A program made the translations under genes and the position numbers. A stretch of DNA of 32,000 nt from Candidatus Paracaedimonas acanthamoebae. Its GTDB lineage: Bacteria; Pseudomonadota; Alphaproteobacteria; Caedimonadales; Caedimonadaceae. How positions within the stretch are numbered: the stretch's first letter is position 1; each line of letters begins with the position of its first letter. A model generated the notes under the pieces. It was not told where the DNA came from and searched no databases. It was given only the letters and a program-made list of their open reading frames with translations. This document shows, one piece after another, positions 9,809 through 30,911 of the stretch. The stretch is taken from the NCBI GenBank assembly GCA_000743035.1, contig CP008936.1, positions 540,001 through 572,000 on the forward strand, read 5' to 3'.

Positions 9809-10731
9809 TTAAAATGAAGAAGAGAGTTGCCGTCTTGATGGGCGGATGGAATGGGGAGCGCGATGTATCTTTATCGAGTGGTCGTGGGGTTGTCACGGCT
9901 TTGCAAGAACGAGGATATGATGTTGTTCCTATTGAACTGACTCGTAATTTACCTTCCCTCCTTGAGTTGCTGGATCCTAAGCCTGATGTTCTTTTTATGT
10001 GTGCTCTCCATGGGAAGTGGGTTGAGGATGGCTGTTTGCAAGGTATGCTTGAAATCATGGGCATCCCTTATACAAATTCAAGTCCTTTGGCATCAGCCCT
10101 TGCGATGGACAAGCCGATGGCTTTAAGAATGTTTCGAGAGGCTGAAATTCCCTGTCCAGACGGAAAAGTAGTAAAATTAACAGATCTTCTGAAAGGGGAC
10201 ATTTTATCTTTTCCTTATGTGATTAAACCTCTTCGAGAAGGTTCAAGTTTAGGGGTACATATTATTCACAATAGAAAAGATCTCTTAAAAGCTGAAGAAA
10301 CATGGCAATATGGTGATCAATGCTTGGTAGAGCCCTATATTCCTGGTCGAGAAATTCAAGTGGCAATTCTAGGTGACCGTGCGATAGGCGCTATTGAGAT
10401 CCGGCCAAAAGAGGGTTTTTATGATTACAATGCAAAGTATATTGACGGTTATACCGAACATATCATGCCTGCAGGAATCCCTGAAAAAGATTATCAAAAA
10501 GCTTTAGAATTAAGCCTAAAAGCACATAGAACGCTAGGGTGCGAGGGTGTGACGAGAGTAGACCTACGATACGATGATACGCAAAATCCTGCTAAATTTT
10601 ATGTTCTTGAGGTTAACACCCAACCTGGGTTGACGCCTTTATCATTAGTGCCTGAAATTGCGGCATATCATGGGATGAATTATGGAGACTTATTAGAATG
10701 GATGATCGAAAATCCACGATGTCCTCATTAA
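9805..10731 (+). CDS. ddl: D-alanine--D-alanine ligase
   Basis: VAVLMGGWNGERDVSLSSG N-terminus and ATP-grasp core (KPLREGSSLGV, LEVNTQPGLTPLS). ATGA overlap with murB. Confidence 0.93.
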   Translation: MIKMKKRVAVLMGGWNGERDVSLSSGRGVVTALQERGYDVVPIELTRNLPSLLELLDPKPDVLFMCALHGKWVEDGCLQGMLEIMGIPYTNSSPLASALAMDKPMALRMFREAEIPCPDGKVVKLTDLLKGDILSFPYVIKPLREGSSLGVHIIHNRKDLLKAEETWQYGDQCLVEPYIPGREIQVAILGDRAIGAIEIRPKEGFYDYNAKYIDGYTEHIMPAGIPEKDYQKALELSLKAHRTLGCEGVTRVDLRYDDTQNPAKFYVLEVNTQPGLTPLSLVPEIAAYHGMNYGDLLEWMIENPRCPH

Positions 10732-11573
10732 GTTCTCGTTCCAATCCTAGAGTAGTTACAAAGCCGCGGTTGGCAAAAAAGCGAGCTTATACATCTTTGA
10801 GCATAAAACAAAATTGGAAACTTTTATCTATCGTTGTTCTTGGGTTAAGTATTGTTCTAGCATGGGCTCCTTTCATGAATGCTCTGGATATTTTTGAGAA
10901 AAGCATAGCATTAAGAGGCCAGACCTTCTTAAAACAAATTGGCTTTCAAGTTAATGATTTAATTGTTGAAGGTCGTAGCCTGACTTCTCAGGAAGATATT
11001 CTTAAGGCCGTTAATATTCAGCGGGGGGAATCTCTTTTTGCATCAGATTTAGAAGCAATAAAAAAACGCCTTGAAGCTCTTTCTTGGGTTCGGACCGCGA
11101 CGGTACAAAGACGTTGGCCTTTTACAATTTATGTGCGTCTTGCTGAATATAGACCAATTGCTTTATGGCAACAAAAAGCCAAATTCTATTTGGTAGATGA
11201 CCAAGGTCATTATTTTAAAATTCCAAAGAATAATCCTTTTCAAAGTTTGCCTATTTTAACGGGGGAAGAAGCTCCTAAGAATGCACCTCAGTTATTTTCT
11301 ATTCTAAGGGACTTTCCTAGCATTATAGGAAGAGTAACTGGCGCTATTTATCTAGGTAAGAGACGATGGGATCTTATGTTAGATAACCGTTTGAAGCTCA
11401 AACTCAGCGAAGAAAGAATTAAGCAAAGCCTTATTCAATTCGTAAAAATGGAAGAAGGTCGTAAGATTAGTGATAAAAATATTGTTGCGATTGATTTAAG
11501 ATTTGAAGATAAAGTTTATTTTCAGTTGGCTCCTGAAGCCGCTGAAATTAAATTGTCGTCAAAACAGACATGA
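10698..11573 (+). CDS. ftsQ: cell division protein FtsQ (POTRA domain)
   Basis: Basic cytoplasmic N-terminus, one TM helice (LLSIVVLGLSIVLAWAPF), and a POTRA-like segment (VNDLIVEGRSLTSQEDILKAV...WVRTATVQRRWPFTIYVRLAEYRPIALW). Position is ddl-ftsQ-ftsA. The start could instead be the ATG at 10719. Confidence 0.85.
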   Translation: MDDRKSTMSSLSSRSNPRVVTKPRLAKKRAYTSLSIKQNWKLLSIVVLGLSIVLAWAPFMNALDIFEKSIALRGQTFLKQIGFQVNDLIVEGRSLTSQEDILKAVNIQRGESLFASDLEAIKKRLEALSWVRTATVQRRWPFTIYVRLAEYRPIALWQQKAKFYLVDDQGHYFKIPKNNPFQSLPILTGEEAPKNAPQLFSILRDFPSIIGRVTGAIYLGKRRWDLMLDNRLKLKLSEERIKQSLIQFVKMEEGRKISDKNIVAIDLRFEDKVYFQLAPEAAEIKLSSKQT

Positions 11574-11580
11574 GCGTAAA

Positions 11581-12855
11581 ATGAGTCTTTTTTCTTTTCG
11601 TAAAAATCACAAGCTAACAGTAAAAGATATAATTGCTGGTTTAGATATTGGAGCCTCTAAAGTTTCTTGTGGAATTGCGCGCTTAGATGCGAGCAGAAAA
11701 CTAAGAATTATAGGCTATGGCCATCAAGCATCCCGCGGTTTAAAAGCTGGGATGATTATAGATATGGAGGCATTAACTTCTTCTGTTGTAGGGGCTATTC
11801 ATGCTGCTGAAGAAATGGCAGAGGAGACTCTTCAAGAGGTTTTTTTAGGAGTATCACCTGCGATTACAAAGTCTCATTCTTTACGCATAGAGGCAAATAT
11901 TTCTGGTCATGCTATTGATGCGACTGATTTAAAAAAAATCTCAGCTCAAGCATGTCATGAAGTTGAGAGAGCAGGCAATCATGTAATTCATATGATTCCT
12001 ATGACTTATGATATTGATAATGCACATGACATTAAAGATCCTCGGGGAATGTTTGGTGAAACTTTACGTTCTTCAATTTCTCTTATTTCTTCCCAACCCT
12101 CAATCTTGCGTAATTTTGTAGCTTGTATCGAAAGATGTCACCTTGGGGTCGCTGGTTTTGTTTCTTCTAGTTATGCATCTGGCCTTGCAACGTTAGTAGA
12201 GGATGAATTTGAACTTGGAGCAACTGTGATTGATATGGGCGCTGGAACCACATCTATTGCTGTTTTTCATGATTCTAAGCTCTCTTATACAGATACGATT
12301 TTAGTTGGCGGGGCTCATGTCACAGCTGATATTGCGCGAGGTTTTTCGACTCCTATGATTCATGCTGAGCGCCTTAAAGCGCTTTACGGAAGCGCAATGG
12401 TTTCCTCCAATGATGAACGAGAGAAAATTGTTGTGCCTCAGATAGGAGAAGATGAAAATCATAAAGGCAGTCAAATAACAAGAGGTGAATTAGTGCGAAT
12501 AGTTCGTCCTCGGATAGAAGAAACATTTGAGCTTATAAGAGATCGGATGAAAGCCGCTGGTGTTCATAAAAATGCGGGAAAAAGGCTCGTCATAACAGGA
12601 GGGGCGAGCCAATTGGCAGGTGTTATTCAGCTTGCTAATCTTGTTCTTGAAAAGCAAGGACGTCTTGGAAAGCCCCTCCATCTTTTAGGATTGGAGCAAG
12701 GCTCAAGAAACCCAATGTTTTCAGCATGTGCCGGATTAATGATGTATGGTAAAAATACTTATGACAGTTTAAGAGAGTTTCCCGAAAAGCAAGGCCAGAG
12801 TAATATAAATCAATTTTTTGGTCAGATTGGGTACTGGTTGCGCGAGAATTTGTAG
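11581..12855 (+). CDS. ftsA: cell division protein FtsA (actin-like ATPase)
   Basis: IAGLDIGASKVSC phosphate-1 motif, DMGAGTTSIAVF, ITGGASQLAG. I chose the ATG at 11581, 8 nt after the ftsQ stop, over the upstream extension at 11503, which overlaps ftsQ. Confidence 0.9.
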   Translation: MSLFSFRKNHKLTVKDIIAGLDIGASKVSCGIARLDASRKLRIIGYGHQASRGLKAGMIIDMEALTSSVVGAIHAAEEMAEETLQEVFLGVSPAITKSHSLRIEANISGHAIDATDLKKISAQACHEVERAGNHVIHMIPMTYDIDNAHDIKDPRGMFGETLRSSISLISSQPSILRNFVACIERCHLGVAGFVSSSYASGLATLVEDEFELGATVIDMGAGTTSIAVFHDSKLSYTDTILVGGAHVTADIARGFSTPMIHAERLKALYGSAMVSSNDEREKIVVPQIGEDENHKGSQITRGELVRIVRPRIEETFELIRDRMKAAGVHKNAGKRLVITGGASQLAGVIQLANLVLEKQGRLGKPLHLLGLEQGSRNPMFSACAGLMMYGKNTYDSLREFPEKQGQSNINQFFGQIGYWLRENL

Positions 12856-14486: not shown

Positions 14487-15038
14487 ATGACATTAACACT
14501 TCTTGAAACACCTCGTCTTTATTTACGTTCTCTAATGCTTGAAGATGTTGAGGATGTTTACGCTTATGCTAAAGATCCTCAAGTGAGTAAGTATGTCACT
14601 TGGGAGACTCATAAAACTCAAACAGAGACATATGAGTTTATACAAAATTTCGCGTTTAAAAAATATGCGGAAGGCGAGCTGGAGCCATACGGGATAGTTC
14701 TTAAAGAAGAGAATCGTATTATTGGCACAGTAGGGTGCAGCTGGCAGAAGAAAAAAGACAATACCATGTCAATGGGCTATGTTTTAGCGCGCGAATATTG
14801 GGGAAAGGGATTGATGACTGAAGCGGCTCAAGCGCTTTTGGATTATGCTTTTAAAAGTCAAAAACCTTACCTTATTATGGCGTGGTGCATTGCTGAGAAT
14901 AAGGCATCTTCACGCGTTATGCAAAAACTTGGAATGACGTTTGAAGGATGTCTTAGAGGTCGGATATTTCGTTATGGTAAGCATTGGGATATGGATGTCT
15001 ATTCAATTCTACAAAAAGAGTGGTTAAAAGGACTTTGA
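14487..15038 (+). CDS. GNAT-family N-acetyltransferase (RimJ/RimL-like)
   Basis: N-terminal LETPRLYLRSL...EDVEDVYAYAKDP, a core (GTVGC...GYVLAREYWGKGLMTEAAQALLDYAF) and an NKASSRVMQKLGMTFEG tail. Together these are typical of the Acetyltransf_3/RimJ-like family. Confidence 0.8.
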   Translation: MTLTLLETPRLYLRSLMLEDVEDVYAYAKDPQVSKYVTWETHKTQTETYEFIQNFAFKKYAEGELEPYGIVLKEENRIIGTVGCSWQKKKDNTMSMGYVLAREYWGKGLMTEAAQALLDYAFKSQKPYLIMAWCIAENKASSRVMQKLGMTFEGCLRGRIFRYGKHWDMDVYSILQKEWLKGL

Positions 15039-15343
15039 TTTAAAAGGGTGTTTCAGTTTTATAATAGACATGTTTTGTAAGTTTTTATTCTCTCAAAAAA
15101 GAGTTTATTTTGTGCAACTATATGAGAATAATCCTATAGTGTGTATTTCAAACATAGTGTGGACTATAGAGAAACAACGCGCAGATGTGATACGCTCCTC
15201 ATTGGCTGAGTACAGAAGATGTTCGCATGTAGCAATATTAGAAGCTATAAGATAAATTTTGTTTTCAGTAAGATATGTTTATCAGTTGGGACAGAACTGC
15301 CAATATGAAAGCTAATATTATTAACTTTTTTAACTTTTGAACG

Positions 15344-15565
15344 ATGATGTCTCATAAACTTTCTGCAACGGTCACTCAGATTCTTAATATTCTCAATGAT
15401 GGAACACTTCACACAGGTATTGATATTGGAGATGCTTTGGGAATTTCATGTACGGCTGTTTGGAAAGTTATCAAGCGGCTACAAAAGTACAACATTGATA
15501 TTCAATCTCAGCATTAAGGATATCACTTAAAAGAGCCATTAATTTTTTCTATGGTTAACGAATAA
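15344..15565 (+). pseudogene. BirA-type winged-helix (HTH_11-like) N-terminal fragment interrupted by in-frame stops
   Basis: Translation is MMSHKLSATVTQILNILNDGTLHTGIDIGDALGISCTAVWKVIKRLQKYNIDIQSQH*GYHLKEPLIFSMVNE*. The HTH followed by G-Y-x-L-x-E-P matches the biotin-repressor N-terminal domain layout. A TAA at 15515-15517 falls where BirA has the residue before GY, and a second stop is at 15563-15565. No intact ligase domain follows. Confidence 0.55.
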
Positions 15566-15669
15566 ATTAATATTAAGATAGAGTGCTTAGAAATAAGCTC
15601 AATTCCTAATCTTTTACGAAATGGTAAAAATACTTCTGGCCTTGAGCAATTAGTGCTGAGAATAAATAG

Positions 15670-15863
15670 AATACTTGGTATGAAAACCAGCGGCTTTAAG
15701 GCTTCAAAACATGGTGATGTAGAGCATTATTAATGTCTCTTTTTTAGCTAGATGTTTTTGAAAACGTAAGGTTAAAATTATCTTTATATTTGAATAGTGA
15801 CAACAGTAGGATATAGATGTCTATGCAATTTTAACACAAGAGTGGTTGCATCCTAAAAAATAA
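15670..15863 (+). pseudogene. degraded remnant of a second GNAT acetyltransferase copy (3' end)
   Basis: 15810-15863 encodes DIDVYAILTQEWLHPKK*, compared with DMDVYSILQKEWLKGL* in the intact GNAT (14988-15038), with clear nucleotide-level similarity. Upstream pieces (DVFEN... at 15751; ILGMKTSG...KHGDVEHY* at 15674-15733) resemble KLGMTFEG...KHWDMDVY but lie in other frames and carry stops (TAG at 15807). Confidence 0.55.
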
Positions 15864-16000
15864 AAAACTTTTTTTTATTCAAATTGTTGCGTAGCTTTTT
15901 ATCGATGTTTCTACTTAAAAGTAGAAAGCTATAATTCTTTTAAACTTCAATTCACCTGCTTCATTTCTTAATTTGTTCATACGGGTTTACTAATTTTATT

Positions 16001-16234
16001 GCAGGAGGGGGCTGCACGAGCTTTCAAGACTTGGAAAGTATAGAGGAGAGGGAAGCCGAAAGTCATTTATGACGACCCCCACTAATGTAGATATTAAAAG
16101 TGAAGAATTTTATCCTGGCGAGGGCTAAATTGAGGAGAAGTTCTTTTATTGAATCAATTAGTTAACAACTAATTTACGTCTTTGTTAAAGGCGCAGCTTG
16201 AGGAAATTACTCCTTTAAAAGCTGCGCTTTTTTT
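16001..16234 (+). ncRNA. candidate small transcript / structured RNA of unknown class
   Basis: A G-rich start (GCAGGAGGGGGCTGCACGAG), unusual for this AT-rich DNA. Local helices include CTTTC/GAAAG around 16021-16038, GTCA/TGAC at 16062-16073, and GGGGG (16007-16011) with a potential partner CCCCC (16076-16080). A strong plus-strand intrinsic terminator follows. No plus-strand ORF of 60 aa or more is present, and it matches no RNA family I recognise. Confidence 0.3.
16187..16234 (+). terminator. strong plus-strand intrinsic terminator convergent on the hemB operon
   Basis: A 9-bp stem GCGCAGCTT (16191-16199) / AAGCTGCGC (16219-16227) with an inner 4-bp AGGA/TCCT helix, then a T7 run at 16228-16234. 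The minus-strand side lacks a U-tract. The hairpin overlaps the last codons of the minus-strand lipoprotein ORF. Confidence 0.65.
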
Positions 16235-16446
16235 CGTTCTTCTTTGCCCTTTAAAAGATTTTTCTGATGCTCAGATTTAAGTTTCAATTCTTCTTGAGTG
16301 TGAACTTGTTGTGGGGTAAATTTATAACCTTCAGGAACAGAGTGTAAAGTTTCAAAAGGCTGCGGGTCTTCATCTTGGAAAACAAGATAAGATCCAATAC
16401 AGCCGGAAAGAGTTAAACATGACAGAGTTAAAATAATTTTCTTCAT
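16207..16446 (-). CDS. small lipoprotein of unknown function
   Basis: Signal peptide with lipobox MKKIILTLSCLTLSGC and a charged Lys/Glu-rich C-terminus. The ATG overlaps the hemB stop (ATGA), suggesting co-translation with hemB. Confidence 0.6.
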   Translation of the reverse strand: MKKIILTLSCLTLSGCIGSYLVFQDEDPQPFETLHSVPEGYKFTPQQVHTQEELKLKSEHQKNLLKGKEERKKAQLLKE

Positions 16447-19880: not shown

Positions 19881-19936
19881 GATACAAAAATAAACCAATA
19901 GTGTAAAGTACCGCAACATGTTGAAAGGAGATATTG

Positions 19937-21325
19937 ATGCTTGGTTTATTGATGAAGTTATGTAGCTTTAACTTTGGAACTTTTGAAAAGGAAGAGTTCA
20001 AGAAATTTTTACGTATGGGACTAATATTTGCTTTTATTATTGGTGTCTATTGGACTCTCCGACCTTTAAAAGATTCTCTCTTTATCCAATTTGTTGACAA
20101 AATGCAGTTGCCATATGCAAAAACCATATCCGTTTTAATGCTTCTTCCTTTAGTAATGTTTTATACAAAGCTTTTAGAAAAAACCTCGAGAGAGAAGATG
20201 CTTTATATATTTCCAGCATTTTATGGCTTTGGGATTTTGTGTTTTGGAATATTAATGCTGCTTGCTCATGGTACATCAAATGAGATTAATTCTAGAGCAT
20301 TGCTTCCCTTTATTGGTACGAAAGTACTTGGATATGTTTGGTATTTCTTTGTTGAAAGTTTTGGATCTCTTGTCGTCGCCCTCTTTTGGGCTTTTGCAAC
20401 AGATACAACTGAACCCTCATCTGCAAAAAGAGGCTTTCCTTTAGTGGTTGCTATTGGACAGATGGGCGGAATTGTGTGTCCTTATGGTATCGGCGGCCTT
20501 CCTCATCGTCTCGGACTTGAAACAGATACTCTTTCAATGATCATCTTAAGCCTTCTTACTTTCTCTATTATCGCACTTGTTCAATATTTATTGAAGGCAA
20601 CCCCAAGCTCTCTTCTTAAATCATTTCAGGGAGAAAATGACCCCAAAGAAAACGTTCAGCACGAGGCTGGTTTTTTGGAAGGATTAAAGTTGTTATTATC
20701 ACATAAGTACCTTATGGGAATATTTGCGTCGAATTTTATTTATGAGTTGGTTGTAACTATTTTTGATTTCAACTTTAAACTCTCTGCTAGCACTCATTAT
20801 TCCGGTGTAGCACTCACTAATTATTTAAGTGTATATGGCTCTAGCGTGAATATTGTTTCTCTTTTTTGTCTTCTCTTCGGTATTAGCAATGTGACTCGCT
20901 TCTTAGGTGTTGGTATTGCCCTTGCAGTTATGCCCATTATTATAGGACTTGCCTTATTTAGTTTCTTAACAATTGACTCATTATCTTTCTTATTTGCATT
21001 AATGGTTGGGTCTAAAGCAATTAATTACGCTTTGAATGGCCCAGCTTTAAAACAGTTGTACATTCCTACAACAACAGATGCTCGCTTTAAAGCACAAGCT
21101 TGGATCGAAACTTTTGGATCACGAGCATCTAAAGAAGTTGCTTCTGTCTTTAATATGACTCTTAAACCATTACAAAGTATTTTTGGAGAGCTCGCTGGTA
21201 AATCCTATTACCTTGCTCTTAGCGGATTTATAGGCTTTCCATTGTTGATTTTATGGTTCATAACTGCTCTCTTTTTAGGAAGAAAGTATCGCACTGCAAT
21301 TAAAGAACAGAAGGTTATTTGTTAA
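19937..21325 (+). CDS. ATP/ADP-translocase-type nucleotide transporter (NTT/Tlc family, TC 2.A.12)
   Basis: N-terminal EEFKKFLRMGLIFAFIIGVYWTLRPLKDSLF and FWAFATDTTEPSSAKRGFPLVVAIGQMGG match hallmark NTT/Tlc motifs (the RxxKD and AKR(F)Y regions). Polytopic. The ATG at 19937 follows AAAGGAG (19924-19930); the TTG at 19934 is an alternative start. Confidence 0.85.
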   Translation: MLGLLMKLCSFNFGTFEKEEFKKFLRMGLIFAFIIGVYWTLRPLKDSLFIQFVDKMQLPYAKTISVLMLLPLVMFYTKLLEKTSREKMLYIFPAFYGFGILCFGILMLLAHGTSNEINSRALLPFIGTKVLGYVWYFFVESFGSLVVALFWAFATDTTEPSSAKRGFPLVVAIGQMGGIVCPYGIGGLPHRLGLETDTLSMIILSLLTFSIIALVQYLLKATPSSLLKSFQGENDPKENVQHEAGFLEGLKLLLSHKYLMGIFASNFIYELVVTIFDFNFKLSASTHYSGVALTNYLSVYGSSVNIVSLFCLLFGISNVTRFLGVGIALAVMPIIIGLALFSFLTIDSLSFLFALMVGSKAINYALNGPALKQLYIPTTTDARFKAQAWIETFGSRASKEVASVFNMTLKPLQSIFGELAGKSYYLALSGFIGFPLLILWFITALFLGRKYRTAIKEQKVIC

Positions 21326-21837: not shown

Positions 21838-21870
21838 GGCCGGGGTTTTTAACCCCGGCCCTTTTTTTTT
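21838..21870 (+). terminator. strong plus-strand intrinsic terminator with no annotated plus-strand gene nearby
   Basis: A perfect 8-bp GC stem GGCCGGGG (21838-21845) / CCCCGGCC (21853-21860) with a 7-nt loop, then a T9 run at 21862-21870. Read on the minus strand, the hairpin is followed by AAGTTTAAAC, a poor U-tract. Confidence 0.75.
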
Positions 21871-21884
21871 ATCTTAGATTTCTC

Positions 21885-23816
21885 TTAGTAATAAAGAAAA
21901 TTTGCGATCTGAGTAATTTGCTCATCGAATTCTTCATGTTGCCACCAAATGACTGGTGCAATGTCGCCTGACCGGAATTCGCGATACATAGGGGCTGCAT
22001 ACTTAAGGATCATCACTTGGTTATTAGACGGGGAAAACCAATCTTTATTGCGCATTTCAAGCTCAGTAAGATTGGTGGGGACATCAACATTTGGATTATT
22101 AAAGGTTTGTTTGATATCTGCCATATTCTTTTGATGAGATCTTGGTGTAATTAAATATGTTACCGACTTACGCACGCTATTCGTTGTCTCTCGTGAAAAT
22201 AAATACTGAATTCCTGGAATATCTTGAAGGAGTGGAAAACCAGATTTTTCGGCTTGATCTTCATGAGAGTTAATTCCACCAAGCATAAGCGTTTCACCCA
22301 GTTTCATTTCAACTGTGGTCTTCACATGGCTGGTCTGGATAGGCGTAAAGGTTTTCGTCACATCATTTGAGACGTCTGGTGTTAAACTACCGTAGACTTC
22401 AATTTCAAGCAGGACGCGGTCTCCTACTAGAGAAAGAGGAGTCACTTTAACTGTAATACCCGTTGGCGTCTTTGCAACGTTACCCCCAAACTGGCCTGTA
22501 AGACCTAAGGCGAGATCAGTACCAGCATAAAACTCTGCATGCTTGCCAACAATAGTTGTTACAGAGGGGCGATCTAGAACTTTAATGCGCTTCATTACAG
22601 CATTCGCAATATTTAAACTGTAACTAACGCTTCCAAAAGAAACACCTTGGGTAAAGAGGCGGGAGACTGAAAGAGGCGAACCACCTCCTGATATTGTTGC
22701 GGATAGATTTTGAGCCCCAGGAAAAACAGTATGGGATTGAAAATCAACGGCAGTTCTCGTCAATGTGCCATCACCATTATTAATAGTCGATGGAATGCCA
22801 TGCCCACGCGCCCTCATATGGGTGCCTGGAGCGAGTGTTAAAGAAAAGTTTTCAAGGATATTGTTTCCTTTAGCTGTTGAGGCTTCTTCACTCACTCGCA
22901 TCACAATCGCATCAATGGCAACCATTTGTGCAGGAGCTGCTGGTGCTTGAGGGGCTGCTGCAGCGGTTTGCTGTTTATTTCCATCGGAAGCACTTGCTGC
23001 ATCACCACTTGTAGCAGCGTTTGGATCTGCCGAGGCATCATCACCAGCGGCAGTATCCTCAGCTTGAGCAAGCATAATAAAGCCGCCATCGTATAAACGT
23101 TTCCATTCATCAACACGGCGCTTTGCCAATTGAGCTTGGGACTTATTCTCAGCTAAGCTCTCATACTTTTTTAAATAAGTATCGGCTTCTTGGGATTTTC
23201 CTGAGGCGGCCATAATTATGCCTGCAGTGCGATACGCGTCTGCTTTGTTGGGAGCCGCTTTAATATACCGTTCAATGGCAGCTTGAGCTGTTTTGATGTC
23301 ACCAAGATAATATGAAGCTGAAGCCAGTTCATATAAAGCAGGGAGGTTATTCGGTTCAATCAATAGAACGTTGGCAAACTCTTCTTGGGCACTTTTGTGA
23401 TCTTTTTGCTGTCTCTTAACACGACCTAGCTGTAAGGAAGCAATACTGTTTGAAGGATCAAATTTGAGAGCTTGGTTATAACCTGCTTCTGCAATTTCAA
23501 GCTGAGACACATCACCTTTACGAGCGATAAGTTGATAGGTCATGGCATTAAGCGTATGGAGCCAGGAGTTGGTAGGATCATCTACAAGAGCAATATTAAA
23601 GGCTTGTGAAGCTTCGGTGTAGTTTCCAGCCATTAAAGCTTGAATTCCTTCTTTAACAAGCACTTTTTCTTCTGAATGAGACTTCTCAGCAAGGATTTGT
23701 TCCAGAGATTTTCCTTGAGCCATTGATTTCTCATGAGAATTTGATGCGGGCTCATCCGCGCAACCCGCAAGAACAAGCACAGCCATAGCGGTTAAAGATA
23801 AGTGTAATTTTTTCAA
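21885..23816 (-). CDS. outer-membrane lipoprotein: N-terminal TPR domain fused to a secretin core domain
   Basis: TTG start preceded by GGGAGGGG. Lipobox LVLAGC (Cys19). Several TPR-like repeats (YTEASQAFNIALVDDPTNSW, AEAGYNQALKFDPSNS, AQEEFANVLLIEPNNLPALYELA, AQAAIERYIKAAPNKADAY). An Ala/Pro/Asp-rich linker. A secretin core running from MVAIDAIVMRVSEEAS to GFPLLQDIPGIQYLFSRETTNSVRKSVTYLITPR. The C-terminus ends in aromatic residues (FLYY). Confidence 0.8.
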   Translation of the reverse strand: MKKLHLSLTAMAVLVLAGCADEPASNSHEKSMAQGKSLEQILAEKSHSEEKVLVKEGIQALMAGNYTEASQAFNIALVDDPTNSWLHTLNAMTYQLIARKGDVSQLEIAEAGYNQALKFDPSNSIASLQLGRVKRQQKDHKSAQEEFANVLLIEPNNLPALYELASASYYLGDIKTAQAAIERYIKAAPNKADAYRTAGIIMAASGKSQEADTYLKKYESLAENKSQAQLAKRRVDEWKRLYDGGFIMLAQAEDTAAGDDASADPNAATSGDAASASDGNKQQTAAAAPQAPAAPAQMVAIDAIVMRVSEEASTAKGNNILENFSLTLAPGTHMRARGHGIPSTINNGDGTLTRTAVDFQSHTVFPGAQNLSATISGGGSPLSVSRLFTQGVSFGSVSYSLNIANAVMKRIKVLDRPSVTTIVGKHAEFYAGTDLALGLTGQFGGNVAKTPTGITVKVTPLSLVGDRVLLEIEVYGSLTPDVSNDVTKTFTPIQTSHVKTTVEMKLGETLMLGGINSHEDQAEKSGFPLLQDIPGIQYLFSRETTNSVRKSVTYLITPRSHQKNMADIKQTFNNPNVDVPTNLTELEMRNKDWFSPSNNQVMILKYAAPMYREFRSGDIAPVIWWQHEEFDEQITQIANFLYY

Positions 23817-24420: not shown

Positions 24421-25830
24421 TTATTCTTTTTTTAAAGATGACGTAAGCTCAACATTTCCTTGAGGATCTATCGTAAAAGTTGCACCTTCTATAAGGTTAG
24501 GATTGTCTCTTAGTTGGCCTGCAGACTTGTTGAAATTAAGAGTCAAATTAGGATCATAAGATCTATTTGCTCGATTATTGCGATAGTCATATAAAACATG
24601 AGCAATGAAAGTAAGACCGTCCTCTAGACACTTATTAATAGCCATTTTTCTAGGAAGTCCTTGTTTTGTATGCTCCCCCATCAAGTTAACGAGTATAGCT
24701 GGAACGTATGTTGGTGTCTGTTCTTTCCGATAAATAAGAGGATCATATTCAGATGAAATAAGGGCTTTTTGAGTTGGGGTAAGGCGCGTAAAGGTGTCTT
24801 GAAGAGCTGCACCATCTTCTGTCGTATAAAGCCGCATCATTGCGCCCATGCGCGCTAGTAGAAATGTCGTATTTGAAGTTTTGTCTAATCCTAACCATTC
24901 AGCGCGCTTGGATAAGTACCTCTTCAGGGCTTCTTGTTCTGAATGGTCTGCAAGCTCATGCAAACCATCTTTGATTGCAAAGATAGTTTTAAAAGTATTT
25001 TCTGTCATCACCTTAGAGCCAACGTTATCTTCATGTCCACGCGCAGCACTGACATCACAAATATGGGTCAAAATTTCAAAGTCAAATTCTTGAGGATTAT
25101 CTGCGAGAATGCCAGATTCCTTTAATTTTGTTAGAATTTCAGGGCCACCCTCGACATGAGTAACATGCCCTAGATGAACAAGACCTTTTGTCTTCTTGAT
25201 GTGCTTTTGTTGTGTTGGTGTCAATATTTGAAAGGTAGAGAAAATTTCTGGACATTTTTCCAGGCATTCATCTAAGAAAAGATCATGATCTGCTTCAGTA
25301 ATGTGGTATTTTTGAGCTTTTTCATGAGCCACTTTGGTTTTACCCATATCTCCTAAAATAAGATTAATTTCAAGCATTTGCAGCACTTGAGGATCTTTTT
25401 GAATAATTGTTTGAGCAAAATGGTGCAGCTTTTGAAAGGAATCGCGCGTAAGTTTTTCGGCTGTAGGTTGTAGACTTGTAAAGCGCTCATATGCAATATC
25501 ACTGCCATCCGCGATTAGATAGAGGCAAACAAGACTTAAAATTGTTCTTTCAAATTCAGGATAGTGAGCGCCTGTAATTTTCTTTGACCAGCTATGTGGG
25601 AATTGTTCAATTTTTCCTTCTTGAGTGTGCTGAACATTTTTATCTAGCAACCATTCAAGCTCAGGATATGTTGTGATTTTTGATTTTGCCCATTCTTCAG
25701 AACCCAGAGTTTCTAAGCTTGAGAGAGGTGACGTCGAAGATGAAGAGGGATAAGTGGGTTGAGATAGAAAGGAAAACAGAAAGAAAAATGAAGCTAAATA
25801 AAGTTTTTTTCTAAAAGTTTTATACTGCAT
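24421..25830 (-). CDS. exported protein of unknown function (Sec-type signal peptide)
   Basis: ATG preceded by AAGGGGGA. Signal-like N-terminus MQYKTFRKKLYLASFFFLFSFLSQP followed by a Ser-rich stretch. It has no family I can name. It contains a C-x5-R string (HICDVSAARG) and a His/Asp cluster (HITEADHD, HLGHVTH). The stop lies 5 nt before the coaD start. Confidence 0.7.
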   Translation of the reverse strand: MQYKTFRKKLYLASFFFLFSFLSQPTYPSSSSTSPLSSLETLGSEEWAKSKITTYPELEWLLDKNVQHTQEGKIEQFPHSWSKKITGAHYPEFERTILSLVCLYLIADGSDIAYERFTSLQPTAEKLTRDSFQKLHHFAQTIIQKDPQVLQMLEINLILGDMGKTKVAHEKAQKYHITEADHDLFLDECLEKCPEIFSTFQILTPTQQKHIKKTKGLVHLGHVTHVEGGPEILTKLKESGILADNPQEFDFEILTHICDVSAARGHEDNVGSKVMTENTFKTIFAIKDGLHELADHSEQEALKRYLSKRAEWLGLDKTSNTTFLLARMGAMMRLYTTEDGAALQDTFTRLTPTQKALISSEYDPLIYRKEQTPTYVPAILVNLMGEHTKQGLPRKMAINKCLEDGLTFIAHVLYDYRNNRANRSYDPNLTLNFNKSAGQLRDNPNLIEGATFTIDPQGNVELTSSLKKE

Positions 25831-29303: not shown

Positions 29304-30911
29304 TCATTGAGCATTGTATTCCCCACGGTCCCATAAAATATGAAGTAAGAAGAGAGGGATATTGTAAAAACGGGTAATATTATTGTCATCCATAAATTTT
29401 AGAATTTTGTCTTCATCCCAACCATACAGATGACCAACTTGAAGAGCGTCAAGAACACGCGTCTTGCCGTAGCCTTTATATTCATCTGAAGCCGCATTAT
29501 TTTGCGCATGAGGAGGTTCAAAAACGATGCGAAAACTTTTGCCATTCCCAAAATCAATGACAATGGCCCGTTTTCCATGTTTTAAGTTCTTAAGAGAGGC
29601 TTTTCTCTTAAGAGAATCATTTGTTAATATCTTTATAAGTCCTTGAATTTCTTTATTAATTTCGGATTCCTTGATCGTTGTTGCTTGGCGATAAGCTTGA
29701 ATGCGGGTTAAAGCTTCCTGACGTTCTAGATCTTTTGGAGTTGGCTGAGGCGCCGGTGCAGGTAGCTGCGGATGCAGAGGAGCAGCCGCATGATGAGGAG
29801 TCTGGTGTCGAGGTCTCCTCGTCGCAAGAGGTTGCTGAGGCGCCGGTTGAGGTACCATGTGCGCAACAGGTAACGGTGCTACTACTGCTGCAGGTGGTTG
29901 TTGGATCTGAGGAGCAGCTGCGTGATGAGGCTGTGGCACCTGCAGCAGCTGTGCAGGTTGAGGTAAGTGAGCTAAGAGTGGTTGATGCCCTTGTGGTGCT
30001 CCAGCCTGGTGGGATTGAGGTGTTGCTGGTTGTTGTAAAAGGCGCTCAATAATCTGAGAATTTCTTTTTAAATAAGCTTGAGAACCACTGATAATATTGC
30101 TGAATATCTGAAAAACTCCGTTAATTGCTTGGGCATCTCCATGCATTTGAAGAAAACGATAAATTGCCCACTGAGTAGAGGTTAAAGATTGATGATAGAT
30201 AGGTAGAAAAAAACCAGGCATAATTTCAAGCCCTGGCCCCCGCCAGTAATGAAAAAGTTTATTTGCAGCCGTGACTTCGCACATCCCATCAAGAATTCCT
30301 AAAACAGGAATATCGCTGCGTGCTTGCCCAGTCGTATAGGTGTGTCTGAGCTCATTTAAATTGTAGATGAGGCCTGCTACATACATGCTTGCAACGAATG
30401 CCGTATTCAATGGCTCATCTGACAAATTGTGTTGGAAAATCGTGTAAATTGCCCCTACCTTTAAAGCAGCATTGATAAGGCTTTGAGTTTGTCTTAAAAA
30501 AGCGCGTGTTAGTCGAATATTTTCTTGGGCAGCGCGTTCAACTTTTTCTGACTGTTGTAACGCCATTTTTCCTTTTTTGTGTCCTCTGCCTGTCGAAATG
30601 TGTTGAGCTTTTGCAACCGATTCACCATACCATTCCAGGCAGTAACGACCCAGAGTCATAAGGCTTGAAGTGAGATAATAGGTGCTTAGCACATTTATAG
30701 CATCTGGAATATCGTCATTCTCAGTCAGCGAAGATGCTGCATAGGAGGTACCAAGTGCGACCAGTCCATACCCAAGGCGTTTAATTTCTCGAGTCCAGTT
30801 TCTAGAACTTTTTTCTATTTTTGTTTCATCTAAAATTTCTTGATGAGAAGCTTTTGTGAGAGGGTTAAAACAAAATGCTATCATTAAAAGAAAGGGAAAT
30901 ATTTTTTGCAT
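29304..30911 (-). CDS. hypothetical protein: signal/anchor N-terminus, unknown about 290-aa domain, Pro/Gln/Ala/His-rich repeat linker, about 140-aa C-terminal globular domain
   Basis: Long uninterrupted ORF with a hydrophobic N-terminus MQKIFPFLLMIAFCFNPLTKA. The low-complexity segment is QQPATPQSHQAGAPQGHQPLL...HHAAAPQIQQPPAAVVAP...HHAAAPLHPQLPAPAPQPTP. The C-terminal part (KHGKRAIVIDFGNGKSFRIVFEPPH...YKGYGKTRVLDALQ) looks globular. I recognise no family. Confidence 0.7.
   Translation of the reverse strand: MQKIFPFLLMIAFCFNPLTKASHQEILDETKIEKSSRNWTREIKRLGYGLVALGTSYAASSLTENDDIPDAINVLSTYYLTSSLMTLGRYCLEWYGESVAKAQHISTGRGHKKGKMALQQSEKVERAAQENIRLTRAFLRQTQSLINAALKVGAIYTIFQHNLSDEPLNTAFVASMYVAGLIYNLNELRHTYTTGQARSDIPVLGILDGMCEVTAANKLFHYWRGPGLEIMPGFFLPIYHQSLTSTQWAIYRFLQMHGDAQAINGVFQIFSNIISGSQAYLKRNSQIIERLLQQPATPQSHQAGAPQGHQPLLAHLPQPAQLLQVPQPHHAAAPQIQQPPAAVVAPLPVAHMVPQPAPQQPLATRRPRHQTPHHAAAPLHPQLPAPAPQPTPKDLERQEALTRIQAYRQATTIKESEINKEIQGLIKILTNDSLKRKASLKNLKHGKRAIVIDFGNGKSFRIVFEPPHAQNNAASDEYKGYGKTRVLDALQVGHLYGWDEDKILKFMDDNNITRFYNIPLFLLHILWDRGEYNAQ
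29745..29930. repeat. imperfect direct repeats in a GC-rich island inside the 535-aa ORF
   Basis: CTGAGGCGCCGGTGCAGGTA (29745-29764) matches CTGAGGCGCCGGTTGAGGTA (29835-29854). GAGGAGCAGCCGCATGATGAGG (29777-29798) matches GAGGAGCAGCTGCGTGATGAGG (29909-29930). The spacing between the paired blocks differs (about 32 versus about 74 nt). Confidence 0.6.

What the first reader, a model, noticed from the sequence alone, without database searches (positions are those of the whole stretch)
21885..23816. Orphan lipoprotein fusing a TPR (pilotin-like) domain to a bare secretin core
Seen in the sequence: a lipobox (LVLAGC), about 180 aa of TPR-like repeats, an Ala/Pro/Asp-rich linker (residues about 250-297; 22926-23069), then directly a secretin core ending in GFPLLQDIPGIQYLFSRE...YLITPR, plus an about 80-aa tail ending FLYY. 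I see no N0/N1-type periplasmic domains, which normally couple secretins to an inner-membrane platform. No T2SS, T4P, Tad or T3SS gene lies in this 32-kb window; the neighbours are coaD and a noncoding stretch. Established knowledge: separate TPR lipoproteins (PilF/PilW, Tgl, TadD) act as pilotins for secretins, and lipidated secretins such as HxcQ can self-pilot. Inference: this may be a self-piloting minimal secretin in which the TPR module replaces the N-domains. That would be a stand-alone outer-membrane conduit in a reduced symbiont genome.
Basis: partly seen in the sequence, partly recalled or inferred. Interest (0 to 1): 0.7.

Follow-up and report, generated by a model that had tools for sequence, protein, structure and literature searches.

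The report
Lipoprotein secretin with fused TPR domain
The gene encodes an outer-membrane pore protein (a secretin) with a built-in helper domain and none of the usual coupling domains. It belongs to a large, undescribed family and is probably the missing outer part of a scattered pilus or secretion machine, not a free-standing channel.

Summary
ORF 21885-23816 (-) encodes a 643-aa lipoprotein: LAGC lipobox, about 200 aa of TPR, a disordered Ala/Pro-rich linker, a complete secretin core from residue 298, and a conserved 83-aa tail ending FLYY. No N0/N1/N3-type domain is detectable. No T2SS, T4P, Tad or T3SS gene lies in the window.

The organism is Ca. Paracaedimonas acanthamoebae (Holosporales). 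The gene is under strong purifying selection.

The architecture is not an oddity of one symbiont. It defines a large family with no description found in the papers searched: 781 clusters at 50% identity, and 158 species genomes across Alpha-, Beta- and Gammaproteobacteria and Desulfobacterota.

The "stand-alone conduit" inference is not supported. Relatives carrying the same gyrA-coaD-secretin synteny also encode a type IV filament operon with no secretin of its own (PilB/GspE-like ATPase, PilC/GspF-like platform, two prepilins). In several relatives the prepilin pair lies 0.6-3.5 kb from the TPR-secretin. Published TXSScan work reports "incomplete type IV pili" in most Holosporales.

Best reading: this is the outer-membrane secretin of that scattered machine, with a fused pilotin. 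Free-living subfamilies sit beside giant lectin-domain proteins or TAXI and pentapeptide-repeat genes. That leaves room for a more novel role.

The parts
21885..23816 (-). CDS for the TPR-secretin lipoprotein (643 aa plus stop). Identical to AIL12709.1 / IM40_02925, 'hypothetical protein', Ca. Paracaedimonas acanthamoebae.
   Evidence: dN/dS 0.10-0.11 against orthologues in L001 and L002
23821..23829 (-). Shine-Dalgarno sequence AAGGGAGGG, 4 nt upstream of the TTG start.
   Evidence: read directly from the sequence
23760..23816 (-). Signal peptide and lipobox (residues 1-19, L-A-G-C, with Ala at +2). Predicted lipidation and Lol sorting to the outer membrane.
   Evidence: lipobox in 63/68 members; the sorting rule comes from established knowledge
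23088..23672 (-). TPR domain (residues 49-243, about six helix pairs). Pilotin-like in architecture.
   Evidence: Pfam TPR families; weak PilW and Tgl matches below cut-off; pLDDT above 90 and all-helical; dN/dS 0.06-0.08
22926..23087 (-). Ala/Asp/Pro-rich disordered linker (residues 244-297).
   Evidence: pLDDT 31-35; length 28-178 aa across the family; dN/dS 0.38-0.47
22137..22925 (-). Secretin core (residues 298-560). The Pfam Secretin match covers residues 409-559 (22140-22592).
   Evidence: dN/dS 0.07-0.11
21888..22136 (-). Conserved helical C-terminal tail (residues 561-643; motifs R-x-K-D-W-F and E-F-R-T-G-D, ending F-L-Y-Y). Matches no Pfam family. Occupies the position of an S-domain.
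   Evidence: 80-94 aa in all members and 55/68 end in Y or F; dN/dS 0.07-0.09
21838..21860 (.). G+C-rich hairpin (GGCCGGGG...CCCCGGCC) 25 nt after the stop codon, flanked by an A-run and a T-run. Terminator-like; the consensus scan reports it on the + strand.

Best explanation
The gene encodes the outer-membrane secretin of a reduced, genomically scattered type IV filament machine. That machine is related to T2SS and type IVa pili and is inherited in Holosporales and related Alphaproteobacteria. Its pilotin has been fused to the secretin and its periplasmic N-domains have been lost.

Proposed mechanism, with the basis of each step:
1. The precursor is exported by Sec, lipidated at Cys19 and carried by Lol to the inner leaflet of the outer membrane. 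Basis: inferred from the sequence and established sorting rules.
2. The TPR domain acts as a built-in pilotin, held beside the barrel by a flexible linker of about 54 aa. It may clasp the conserved aromatic C-terminus of the tail, in the same or the neighbouring protomer, as TadD clasps the RcpA C-terminus. Basis: inference by analogy.
3. Residues 298-560 assemble into the usual 12-15-mer gated double beta-barrel. Basis: homology.
4. A fibre built from two prepilin-type proteins is driven through or against this gate. The drive comes from a PilB/GspE-like ATPase carrying an MshEN domain and a PilC/GspF-like platform, both encoded elsewhere. The result would be a pilus or expelled periplasmic cargo. 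Basis: the genes are shown in relatives but are only inferred for this genome.
5. How the channel couples to the inner membrane without an N0 domain is unknown.
For: The protein is a bona fide secretin that meets no specific subfamily cut-off.

The type IV filament operons of relatives contain no secretin gene:
- L084: T2SSE+MshEN, T2SSF, genes of 496, 184 and 158 aa, then two prepilins.
- L087-L089: the same core in a MAG labelled Ca. Paracaedimonas acanthamoebae.
- L093.

The TPR-secretin shares a contig with these operons. On Ga0370205_000031 it is about 200 kb away and sits in uvrA-ssb-gyrA-coaD-secretin synteny, matching the ssb-gyrA-coaD-secretin order of the window. On JAIEMB010000021.1 it is about 35 kb away.

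The prepilin pair lies 0.6-3.5 kb downstream of the TPR-secretin in L007, L010 and L092. Two of these, L007 and L010, came from the genome scan; in the neighbour-joining order L007 lies next to the window protein's group. A Terasakiella contig carries both genes.

The ATPase and platform score as PilB/GspE and GspF/PilC but below the equivalog cut-offs, so the system is divergent.

TXSScan on published Holosporales genomes, including this one (GCA_000743035.1), reports incomplete type IV pili in most of them (PMC9992710).

Purifying selection acts on the TPR, core and tail, and is relaxed only in the linker.

Pilotin precedent: the TadD TPR groove binds the last residues of RcpA.
Against: - The partner genes were not shown in this genome. 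None is in the window. The 120 best ATPase hits include none from the 1,722,347-bp record, though the word filter may have lost it. No close match was found on PLSDB plasmids.
- All structurally characterised secretin-platform couplings that I know of use N0/N1 domains, and these are absent here.
- In 80 genome loci no ATPase or platform gene lies within 10 kb of the secretin.
- Three other subfamilies have unrelated conserved neighbours: TAXI plus pentapeptide-repeat genes, Jacalin-tailed giant proteins, and Ricin-B giant proteins. The family's core function may therefore not depend on a filament.
- Co-occurrence was seen in a handful of genomes. It was not tested statistically.
Confidence: 0.5

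Rival explanations
1. An autonomous secretin channel. The TPR-secretin works without any inner-membrane platform, as a self-assembling gated outer-membrane pore. It lets large Sec-exported periplasmic proteins leave the cell: lectin-domain giants in free-living relatives and unknown effectors in the symbiont. This is.
For: - N-domains are absent throughout the family.
- No T2SS or T4P gene lies within 10 kb in 78 of 80 loci.
- Genes directly beside the secretin are enriched for proteins of at least 800 aa: 26/151 against 44/876, odds ratio 3.9.
- Independent families of signal-peptide proteins with Jacalin, Ricin-B, Tectonin, DM9 or beta/gamma-crystallin domains lie immediately next to the secretin, mostly on the same strand.
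- Nothing from the isolate's record appeared in the ATPase hit list.
Against: - To my knowledge no platform-independent secretin has been described, and an ungated, unpowered route for proteins of 900-2600 aa has no precedent.
- Holosporales relatives do have a secretin-less filament operon, and some have pilin genes beside the secretin.
- The loci used for the enrichment test are phylogenetically non-independent.
- The Holosporales clade shows no lectin-giant neighbour.
Confidence: 0.2
2. An outer-membrane channel for a non-protein substrate. One version is polymer (exopolysaccharide) export, by analogy with TPR-plus-barrel exporters such as PgaA, BcsC and AlgK/AlgE. The other is solute or macromolecule uptake that feeds a TAXI-type periplasmic binding protein.
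For: - The order of TPR followed by an outer-membrane barrel mirrors synthase-dependent EPS exporters. BcsC and PgaA give weak TPR matches.
- Secretins are reported as slime nozzles, and a periplasmic pentapeptide-repeat protein co-purifies with cyanobacterial PilQ (PMC12475490).
- A TAXI binding protein lies immediately upstream in 17 loci and a periplasmic pentapeptide-repeat protein immediately downstream in 25 loci. cNMP-binding, GGDEF and symporter genes often lie nearby.
Against: - No glycosyltransferase or synthase appears among the recurrent neighbours.
- The TAXI and pentapeptide genes are absent from the window, with no remnant by tblastn, and from the Holosporales clade.
- The TPR is lipid-anchored at the outer membrane, whereas the BcsC and PgaA TPR domains reach into the periplasm.
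Confidence: 0.1
3. The missing outer-membrane component of the atypical Holosporales type VI secretion system, which is reported to lack a clear TssJ lipoprotein.
For: Reviews describe the T6SS as the conserved secretion system of the group and say it lacks some membrane-complex parts (PMC11909080; PMC8163844). This protein is an outer-membrane lipoprotein conserved in the group.
Against: - No T6SS gene lies near the secretin in any of the 80 loci.
- The family is common in bacteria where it sits in unrelated contexts.
- To my knowledge secretins have never been linked to T6SS, and a TssJ-like gene has been reported in Ca. Bodocaedibacter.
Confidence: 0.03
4. A decaying relic of a lost secretion system, with no present function.
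For: The host genome is reduced, the gene's location looks orphan, and a pseudogene-like stretch lies elsewhere in the window (15039-16206).
Against: The frame is intact with a strong ribosome-binding site. dN/dS is 0.06-0.11 in all three folded parts. The gene is conserved full-length across the group.
Confidence: 0.02

Closest known systems
HxcQ liposecretin (Pseudomonas aeruginosa Hxc T2SS). Cited from Viarre et al. 2009 through the reference list of PMC12475490 and from my own knowledge.
   Same: The secretin is itself an N-terminally lipidated lipoprotein, so it can reach the outer membrane without a separate pilotin.
   Different: HxcQ keeps the N0-N3 periplasmic domains, has no TPR module, and is encoded inside its T2SS operon.
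TPR-lipoprotein pilotins paired with their secretins: TadD-RcpA (PDB 8odn; PMC10499894), PilF/PilW-PilQ and Tgl-PilQ.
   Same: The pilotin is an outer-membrane lipoprotein of about six TPRs. The TadD groove binds the extreme C-terminus of the secretin's S-domain. Here the TPR and a conserved C-terminal tail lie in one chain.
   Different: Here the pilotin and the secretin are a single polypeptide joined by a disordered linker. Sequence matches to PilW (49 bits against a cut-off of 154) and Tgl (41 against 225) are generic TPR matches. RcpA, PilQ and GspD all retain N-domains.
GspD (T2SS) and PilQ (T4aP) secretins.
   Same: They share the secretin core (Pfam PF00263). The best solved matches are PulD 6hcg, ExeD 6i1x, E. 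coli GspD 5wq7 and PilQ. The likely partner ATPase and platform are of GspE/PilB and GspF/PilC type.
   Different: Scores are far below the family cut-offs: GspD 66 against 351, PilQ 69 against 284. There is no N0, N1, N2, N3 or AMIN domain. The gene is not in the operon.
Acidithiobacillus caldus 'type II secretion system protein' secretin (PDB 8jvb and 9wfd).
   Same: It is the top Foldseek match (E = 7e-17). The profile alignment starts at the very first strand of the core, query position 304.
   Different: Identity is 16%. It has about 156 residues N-terminal to the core that are not TPR. No paper on it could be found in the library.
[quoted passage not shown]
   Same: A periplasmic pentapeptide-repeat protein is associated with a secretin. 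In 25 loci of the free-living subfamily such a gene directly follows the TPR-secretin.
   Different: No pentapeptide-repeat gene lies in the window or in the Holosporales clade. The physical association is untested for this family.
TPR-plus-beta-barrel exporters: PgaA, BcsC, PelB, and Slam (T11SS).
   Same: The domain logic is a periplasm-facing TPR followed by an outer-membrane barrel in one chain.
   Different: The barrels are unrelated monomeric 16-18-strand porins, whereas a secretin is a multimeric barrel. Their TPR domains are not lipid-anchored. This is analogy only.

Membership tests
Secretin superfamily (Pfam PF00263) | C-terminal secretin domain above the gathering score | tested here: met
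   93.1 bits against a cut-off of 27.5, E = 1.8e-26; all 68 family members match; Foldseek hits to solved secretins at E = 1e-17 to 1e-12
Secretin superfamily | SDS- and heat-resistant 12-15-mer ring in the outer membrane | not testable with these tools
   Needs multimer modelling or biochemistry; only a monomer model was possible
T2SS secretin GspD (TIGR02517) | Full-length match above the equivalog cut-off, including the N0-N3 domains | tested here: not met
   66.2 bits against 351.35; only profile positions 335-588 of 600 match; no Secretin_N or STN family
T2SS secretin GspD | Encoded with gspC-M, and N0 binds the GspC HR domain | tested here: not met
   No Gsp homologue other than the secretin itself in the window or within 10 kb in 80 loci
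T4aP secretin PilQ (TIGR02515) | Match above cut-off; AMIN and N0/N1 domains; pilMNOPQ operon | tested here: not met
   69.2 bits against 284.35, C-terminal part only; no AMIN family
MSHA secretin MshL (TIGR02519) | Equivalog-level match | tested here: not met
   48.2 bits against 250.2. The partner ATPase does carry an MshEN domain. That domain also scores within the PilB and GspE models, so it does not identify the system as MSHA.
Tad secretin RcpA/CpaC | N-terminal pilus-formation (VirB9-like) domain, a separate TadD pilotin, and a tad operon | tested here: not met
   No such domain found. RcpA 8odn matches only over the core. The partner ATPase is PilB/GspE-like and its TadA-family model score is weak, despite the PGAP name 'TadA'.
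T3SS secretin SctC (TIGR02516) | Equivalog-level match and a T3SS locus | tested here: not met
   48.2 bits against 238.45
Liposecretins (HxcQ type) | Lipobox cysteine at the mature N-terminus of the secretin | tested here: met
   L-A-G-C19; conserved in 63/68 members. Lipidation itself was not tested.
Class-1 TPR pilotins (PilF/PilW, Tgl, TadD) | Outer-membrane lipoprotein of about six TPRs | tested here: met
   Lipobox plus a helical repeat domain at residues 49-243
Class-1 TPR pilotins | Family-specific sequence match (PilW TIGR02521, Tgl NF033762) | tested here: not met
   49.4 against 154 and 40.9 against 225; unrelated TPR proteins score similarly
Class-1 TPR pilotins | Required for outer-membrane localisation and multimerisation of the secretin; the groove binds the secretin's C-terminus | not testable with these tools
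   Only an analogy with TadD-RcpA. The conserved aromatic C-terminus is compatible with it.
Type IV filament machine (T2SS/T4P-like) as the host system | ATPase, platform and prepilins present in the same genome as the secretin | tested here: inconclusive
   Met in relatives on the same contig, in L007, L010 and L092, and in a MAG with the same species label. Not testable for this genome beyond the 32-kb window. The literature says most Holosporales have incomplete type IV pili.

The most novel reading that the evidence does not exclude
The TPR-secretins are a distinct secretin class that needs no N-domain coupling. A lipid-anchored, self-piloted pore would work as an autonomous, or only loosely filament-assisted, outer-membrane exit for very large Sec-exported lectin-type proteins. 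These would be two-gene cargo-secretin modules in free-living Proteobacteria. Holosporales symbionts would have kept the pore as a minimal route for host-directed proteins.
Probability: 0.15. Interest if true: 0.85.

Novelty: new variant of a known kind. Interest (0 to 1): 0.55.

Why it matters
As far as I know, every secretin studied so far is joined to its inner-membrane machine through N-terminal periplasmic domains, and most need a separate pilotin. This family fuses the pilotin and discards every N-domain. It comprises at least 781 clusters at 50% identity, spread over several proteobacterial classes.

If it serves a filament machine, it shows that coupling can work in another way, and it would be a compact model for secretin assembly. 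If it works alone, it is a new secretion route.

For Holosporales biology, it identifies the probable outer-membrane part of the "incomplete type IV pilus" set. It also points to a second envelope-spanning apparatus besides the T6SS that could act on the host.

The repeated pairing with giant lectin-domain proteins, and with TAXI and pentapeptide-repeat genes, gives testable cargo and partner candidates in culturable bacteria such as Herminiimonas, Limnobacter, Thalassospira, Terasakiella and Glaciecola.

Tried and rejected
- Hidden N-domains. Pfam at E <= 1 for this protein, Pfam over 68 members, and the AlphaFold2 secondary structure found none.
- A degraded pentapeptide-repeat or TAXI gene in the 559-bp gap downstream. 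tblastn of all neighbour families against the window gave nothing better than E = 0.035, and that hit lies elsewhere in the window. The gap contains only a terminator-like hairpin.
- RNA genes in the window. Rfam and ARAGORN found none.
- Direct lookup of the Thalassospira homologue's context. It is not on record.
- Genome scan with the 15-sequence alignment. The scan was repeated with 7 sequences.
- Literature. Searches for orphan secretins, TPR-secretin or pilotin fusions, Paracaedibacter with secretin or T2SS, and the A. caldus structure found no description of this architecture.
- Finding the ATPase in the isolate. It is not among the best 120 hits and has no close match on plasmids, so the question is left open.
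- The T6SS-component idea was rejected because there is no genomic association.
- Large genes downstream of the secretin in L012 and L047 are AddAB-type nucleases or helicases (UvrD-type helicase and PD-(D/E)XK nuclease domains), not cargo.
Full report
**1. The observation.**
The ORF at 21885-23816 on the minus strand is real. It is 643 aa with a TTG start. An AAGGGAGGG ribosome-binding site lies 4 nt upstream, and a G+C-rich hairpin lies 25 nt after the stop.

The product has a signal peptide ending in the lipobox L-A-G-C19. Pfam TPR families match between residues about 110 and 225. Pfam Secretin (PF00263) matches at residues 409-559 with 93 bits against a cut-off of 27.5.

An AlphaFold2 model built on 68 homologues gives four parts:
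- a confident all-helical repeat domain at residues 49-243 (pLDDT above 90);
- a disordered stretch at 247-293 (pLDDT about 31-35);
- a beta-rich core running from residue 298 to 560;
- a partly helical tail to residue 643.

Foldseek places the core among solved secretins of T2SS, T4P, T3SS, Tad and phage pIV at E = 1e-17 to 1e-10. Sequence searches of the PDB agree.

No N0/N1/N3-type family (Secretin_N, STN, AMIN, BON, pil_N) is found at E <= 1. None appears among the families matched by 68 members.

**2. The setting.**
The protein is identical to AIL12709.1 (IM40_02925, "hypothetical protein") of Candidatus Paracaedimonas acanthamoebae, on a 1,722,347-bp record.

The window holds housekeeping genes: the murE-to-ftsZ cluster, a GNAT acetyltransferase, hemB, a GlpT-like transporter, a LysR regulator, a divergent NTP/NDP-exchanger-like gene, the secretin, coaD, a DUF6829 protein, gyrA, ssb, an unknown 535-aa ORF and HU. 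phmmer with E. coli GspC/E/F/G/L/M/O finds nothing in the window. So "no partner in 32 kb" is confirmed.

The gene is not decaying. Against its orthologues in L001 and L002, dN/dS is 0.06-0.08 in the TPR, 0.07-0.11 in the core and 0.07-0.09 in the tail. In the linker it is 0.38-0.47.

**3. A large family, not a one-off.**
A word-indexed search found about 78 full-length homologues with the same TPR-plus-Secretin architecture. An exhaustive profile search of 1.84 billion cluster representatives found 781 proteins at E <= 1e-30. The best 150 all match end to end and are about 530-810 aa long, apart from two fragments of about 440 aa.

A scan of one genome per GTDB species found 158 relatives. 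The 80 kept include Holosporales and other alphaproteobacterial MAGs, Rhodospirillales (Terasakiella, Roseospirillum), Burkholderiales (Herminiimonas, Limnobacter, Aquabacterium, Polaromonas), Gallionellales, Glaciecola and Colwellia, and Desulfuromonas and Desulfobacter. Thalassospira homologues came from the protein search.

Shared features:
- lipobox in 63/68 members;
- TPR of about 200 aa;
- linker of 28-178 aa;
- core of 229-288 aa;
- tail of 80-94 aa, with 55/68 ending in Tyr or Phe.

NCBIfam has no model for the family. All matches are partial and far below cut-off. Public names are "hypothetical", "tetratricopeptide repeat protein" or "GspD". Nine literature searches found no description of the architecture.

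**4. Neighbours in 80 loci.**
I clustered all ORFs of the loci and annotated the recurrent clusters. In a neighbour-joining order the contexts follow subfamilies.
- (a) A mixed Beta/Gamma/Alpha/Delta group has a TAXI-type binding protein (PF16868) immediately upstream in 17 loci. A signal-peptide or lipoprotein pentapeptide-repeat protein (PF00805) follows 0-35 nt downstream in 25 loci. cNMP-binding, GGDEF and symporter genes are often nearby.
- (b) Burkholiales members have a signal-peptide protein of about 930 aa ending in a Jacalin lectin domain directly upstream (11 loci).
- (c) Rhodospirillales members lie beside proteins of about 2,200 aa with Ricin-B domains (6 loci). Two further loci have Tectonin, DM9 and beta/gamma-crystallin proteins.
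- (d) The Holosporales group, which includes the window, sits among housekeeping genes. Five loci of its sister group of alphaproteobacterial MAGs have a divergently transcribed hybrid histidine kinase upstream.

Genes directly beside the secretin are enriched for products of at least 800 aa: 26/151 against 44/876, odds ratio 3.9. The loci are not independent, so this is only indicative. No recurrent neighbour is a T2SS, T4P, Tad, T3SS or T6SS gene, and none is a glycosyltransferase.

**5. The turn: partner genes exist in relatives.**
The Gsp screen gave two marginal GspG hits. These proved to be a tandem pair of prepilin-type genes (…K-A-F-S-L-V-E-L-A-I-S-L-V-I-I-G…) lying 0.6 kb downstream of the TPR-secretin in L007 and L010. 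L007 lies next to the window protein's group in the neighbour-joining order; L010 was too short to be placed. The same pair lies 3.5 kb downstream in L092.

This pilin type has 1,559 homologues; the few that carry a source name are alphaproteobacterial MAGs. One homologue lies on the same 291-kb contig as the secretin homologue P0018, which is 47% identical to the window protein. There the pilin pair adjoins genes of 158, 184 and 496 aa, a T2SSF platform and a T2SSE ATPase with an MshEN domain. No secretin is nearby. About 200 kb away on that contig, the TPR-secretin sits in uvrA-ssb-gyrA-coaD-secretin order, matching the ssb-gyrA-coaD-secretin order of the window.

A second genome has the ATPase-platform operon 35 kb from its TPR-secretin on one contig. 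A Terasakiella contig carries both the pilin pair and the TPR-secretin.

The ATPase search returned MBN9412331.1 from a MAG labelled Ca. Paracaedimonas acanthamoebae. Its context is rnpA, ATPase, platform, a 412-aa unknown, then two prepilins on the opposite strand, again with no secretin. A TPR-secretin 78% identical to the window protein (MBN9413340.1) carries the same organism label.

The ATPase scores as PilB (474 bits) or GspE (444 bits), and the platform as GspF or PilC, all below the equivalog cut-offs. The three following genes match nothing.

Dittmer et al. ran TXSScan on all published Holosporales genomes, this one included. [quoted passage not shown]

**6. Interpretation.**
The most economical reading is that the TPR-secretin is the outer-membrane part of this divergent, scattered type IV filament machine. 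"Orphan" then describes only where the gene sits.

The fused-pilotin idea is plausible. The N-terminal lipid anchor would place the TPR at the inner leaflet of the outer membrane. The linker of about 54 aa can reach the base of the barrel, where the core's N-terminus lies. That puts the TPR beside the barrel, where pilotins sit, and not beneath it, where N-domains sit.

In RcpA-TadD, the groove of a PilF-like TPR lipoprotein binds the last four or five residues of the secretin, and this contact is essential for assembly (PMC10499894). The conserved aromatic C-terminus here suggests the same contact within one chain or between neighbours. This step is inference. I could not inspect inter-domain contacts in the model.

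How the channel is aligned with the platform without an N0 domain is unexplained. The unknown operon genes are candidates.

**7. What remains open.**
I could not scan the rest of this genome. None of the 120 best ATPase hits comes from the isolate's record, and no close copy is on a PLSDB plasmid. The isolate might therefore lack the ATPase, or the word filter may have dropped it.

The free-living subfamilies, with giant lectin-domain neighbours or TAXI and pentapeptide-repeat neighbours, never have filament genes within 10 kb. A pentapeptide-repeat protein has been found to co-purify with a cyanobacterial PilQ ring (PMC12475490). An autonomous or differently partnered mode of action for the family is therefore not excluded. 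I give it about 0.15-0.2.

**8. Verdict.**

This is a new variant of a known kind: a widespread secretin subfamily for which I found no published description. Interest is moderate to high for secretin and secretion-system specialists, and useful for Holosporales biology.

Noticed in passing
window 24421-25830 (-): A 469-aa DUF6829 (PF20717, E = 2.6e-33) protein with a hydrophobic, signal-like N-terminus is inserted between gyrA and coaD, upstream of the secretin on the same strand. It is present in L002 (5800-7194) but absent at this position in L001, L086 and L094. This is a lineage-specific insertion and a possible secreted effector.
   Followed up: partly
window 15039-16206: A gene-poor, low-GC stretch (GC 0.305 at 15001-16000) with no ORF of 100 aa or more. 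A 57-aa HTH_11 fragment at 15344-15517 resembles the N-terminus of a BirA-type repressor and is probably a pseudogene remnant.
   Followed up: partly
window 19934-21325 (+): The NTP/NDP exchange transporter-like protein matches TIGR00769 at only 75 bits against a cut-off of 387. It is a divergent Tlc-type transporter and lies convergent with the secretin gene.
   Followed up: no
window 29304-30911 (-): A 535-aa ORF with no Pfam match lies next to ssb. A 527-aa gene with no Pfam match occupies the same place in the relative L094. In L086 uvrA lies beside ssb.
   Followed up: no
window 16207-16446 (-): A small 79-aa predicted lipoprotein (…L-S-G-C) overlaps the hemB start by 4 nt. A 79-aa gene follows hemB in L094 and L095 as well.
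   Followed up: no
L022, L025, L026, L038, L039, L041, L043, L060 (secretin at about 10001-11900 in most): A conserved three-gene cassette in free-living Proteobacteria: TAXI binding protein (PF16868), TPR-secretin, periplasmic pentapeptide-repeat protein (PF00805). Gaps are 0-35 nt. cNMP-binding, GGDEF, symporter or PBP-MscS genes are often nearby.
   Followed up: partly
L042 7211-9955, L045, L050, L053, L061, L062, L065, L073, L077, L078; L028 1482-9491, L032, L055, L058, L064; L029, L031: Giant signal-peptide proteins lie directly beside the TPR-secretin and are candidate cargo. They are about 930 aa with a C-terminal Jacalin domain, about 2,200-2,670 aa with Ricin-B, or carry Tectonin, DM9 or beta/gamma-crystallin domains.
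   Followed up: partly
L014, L016, L017 (gene upstream of the secretin, e.g. L016 2893-4086): A eukaryote-like LRR_6 (RNI-type) leucine-rich-repeat protein lies upstream of the TPR-secretin in three alphaproteobacterial MAGs, directly in L016 and one small ORF away in L014 and L017.
   Followed up: no
L084 11339-13854; L089 12923-14161; L093 12890-15105: Genes of 412-496 aa, about 185 aa and 128-158 aa follow the ATPase and platform genes of the filament operon. They match no NCBIfam model and have no Pfam hit on record. They are possible alignment or coupling subunits for a secretin that lacks N0.
   Followed up: partly
P0074, P0076, P0078 (alignment A1, columns about 447-497): The most distant family members carry an extra Cys-containing motif (W-F-D-C … L-P-A-L-P-A-P-C) just before the secretin core. 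It is absent from the window protein.
   Followed up: no
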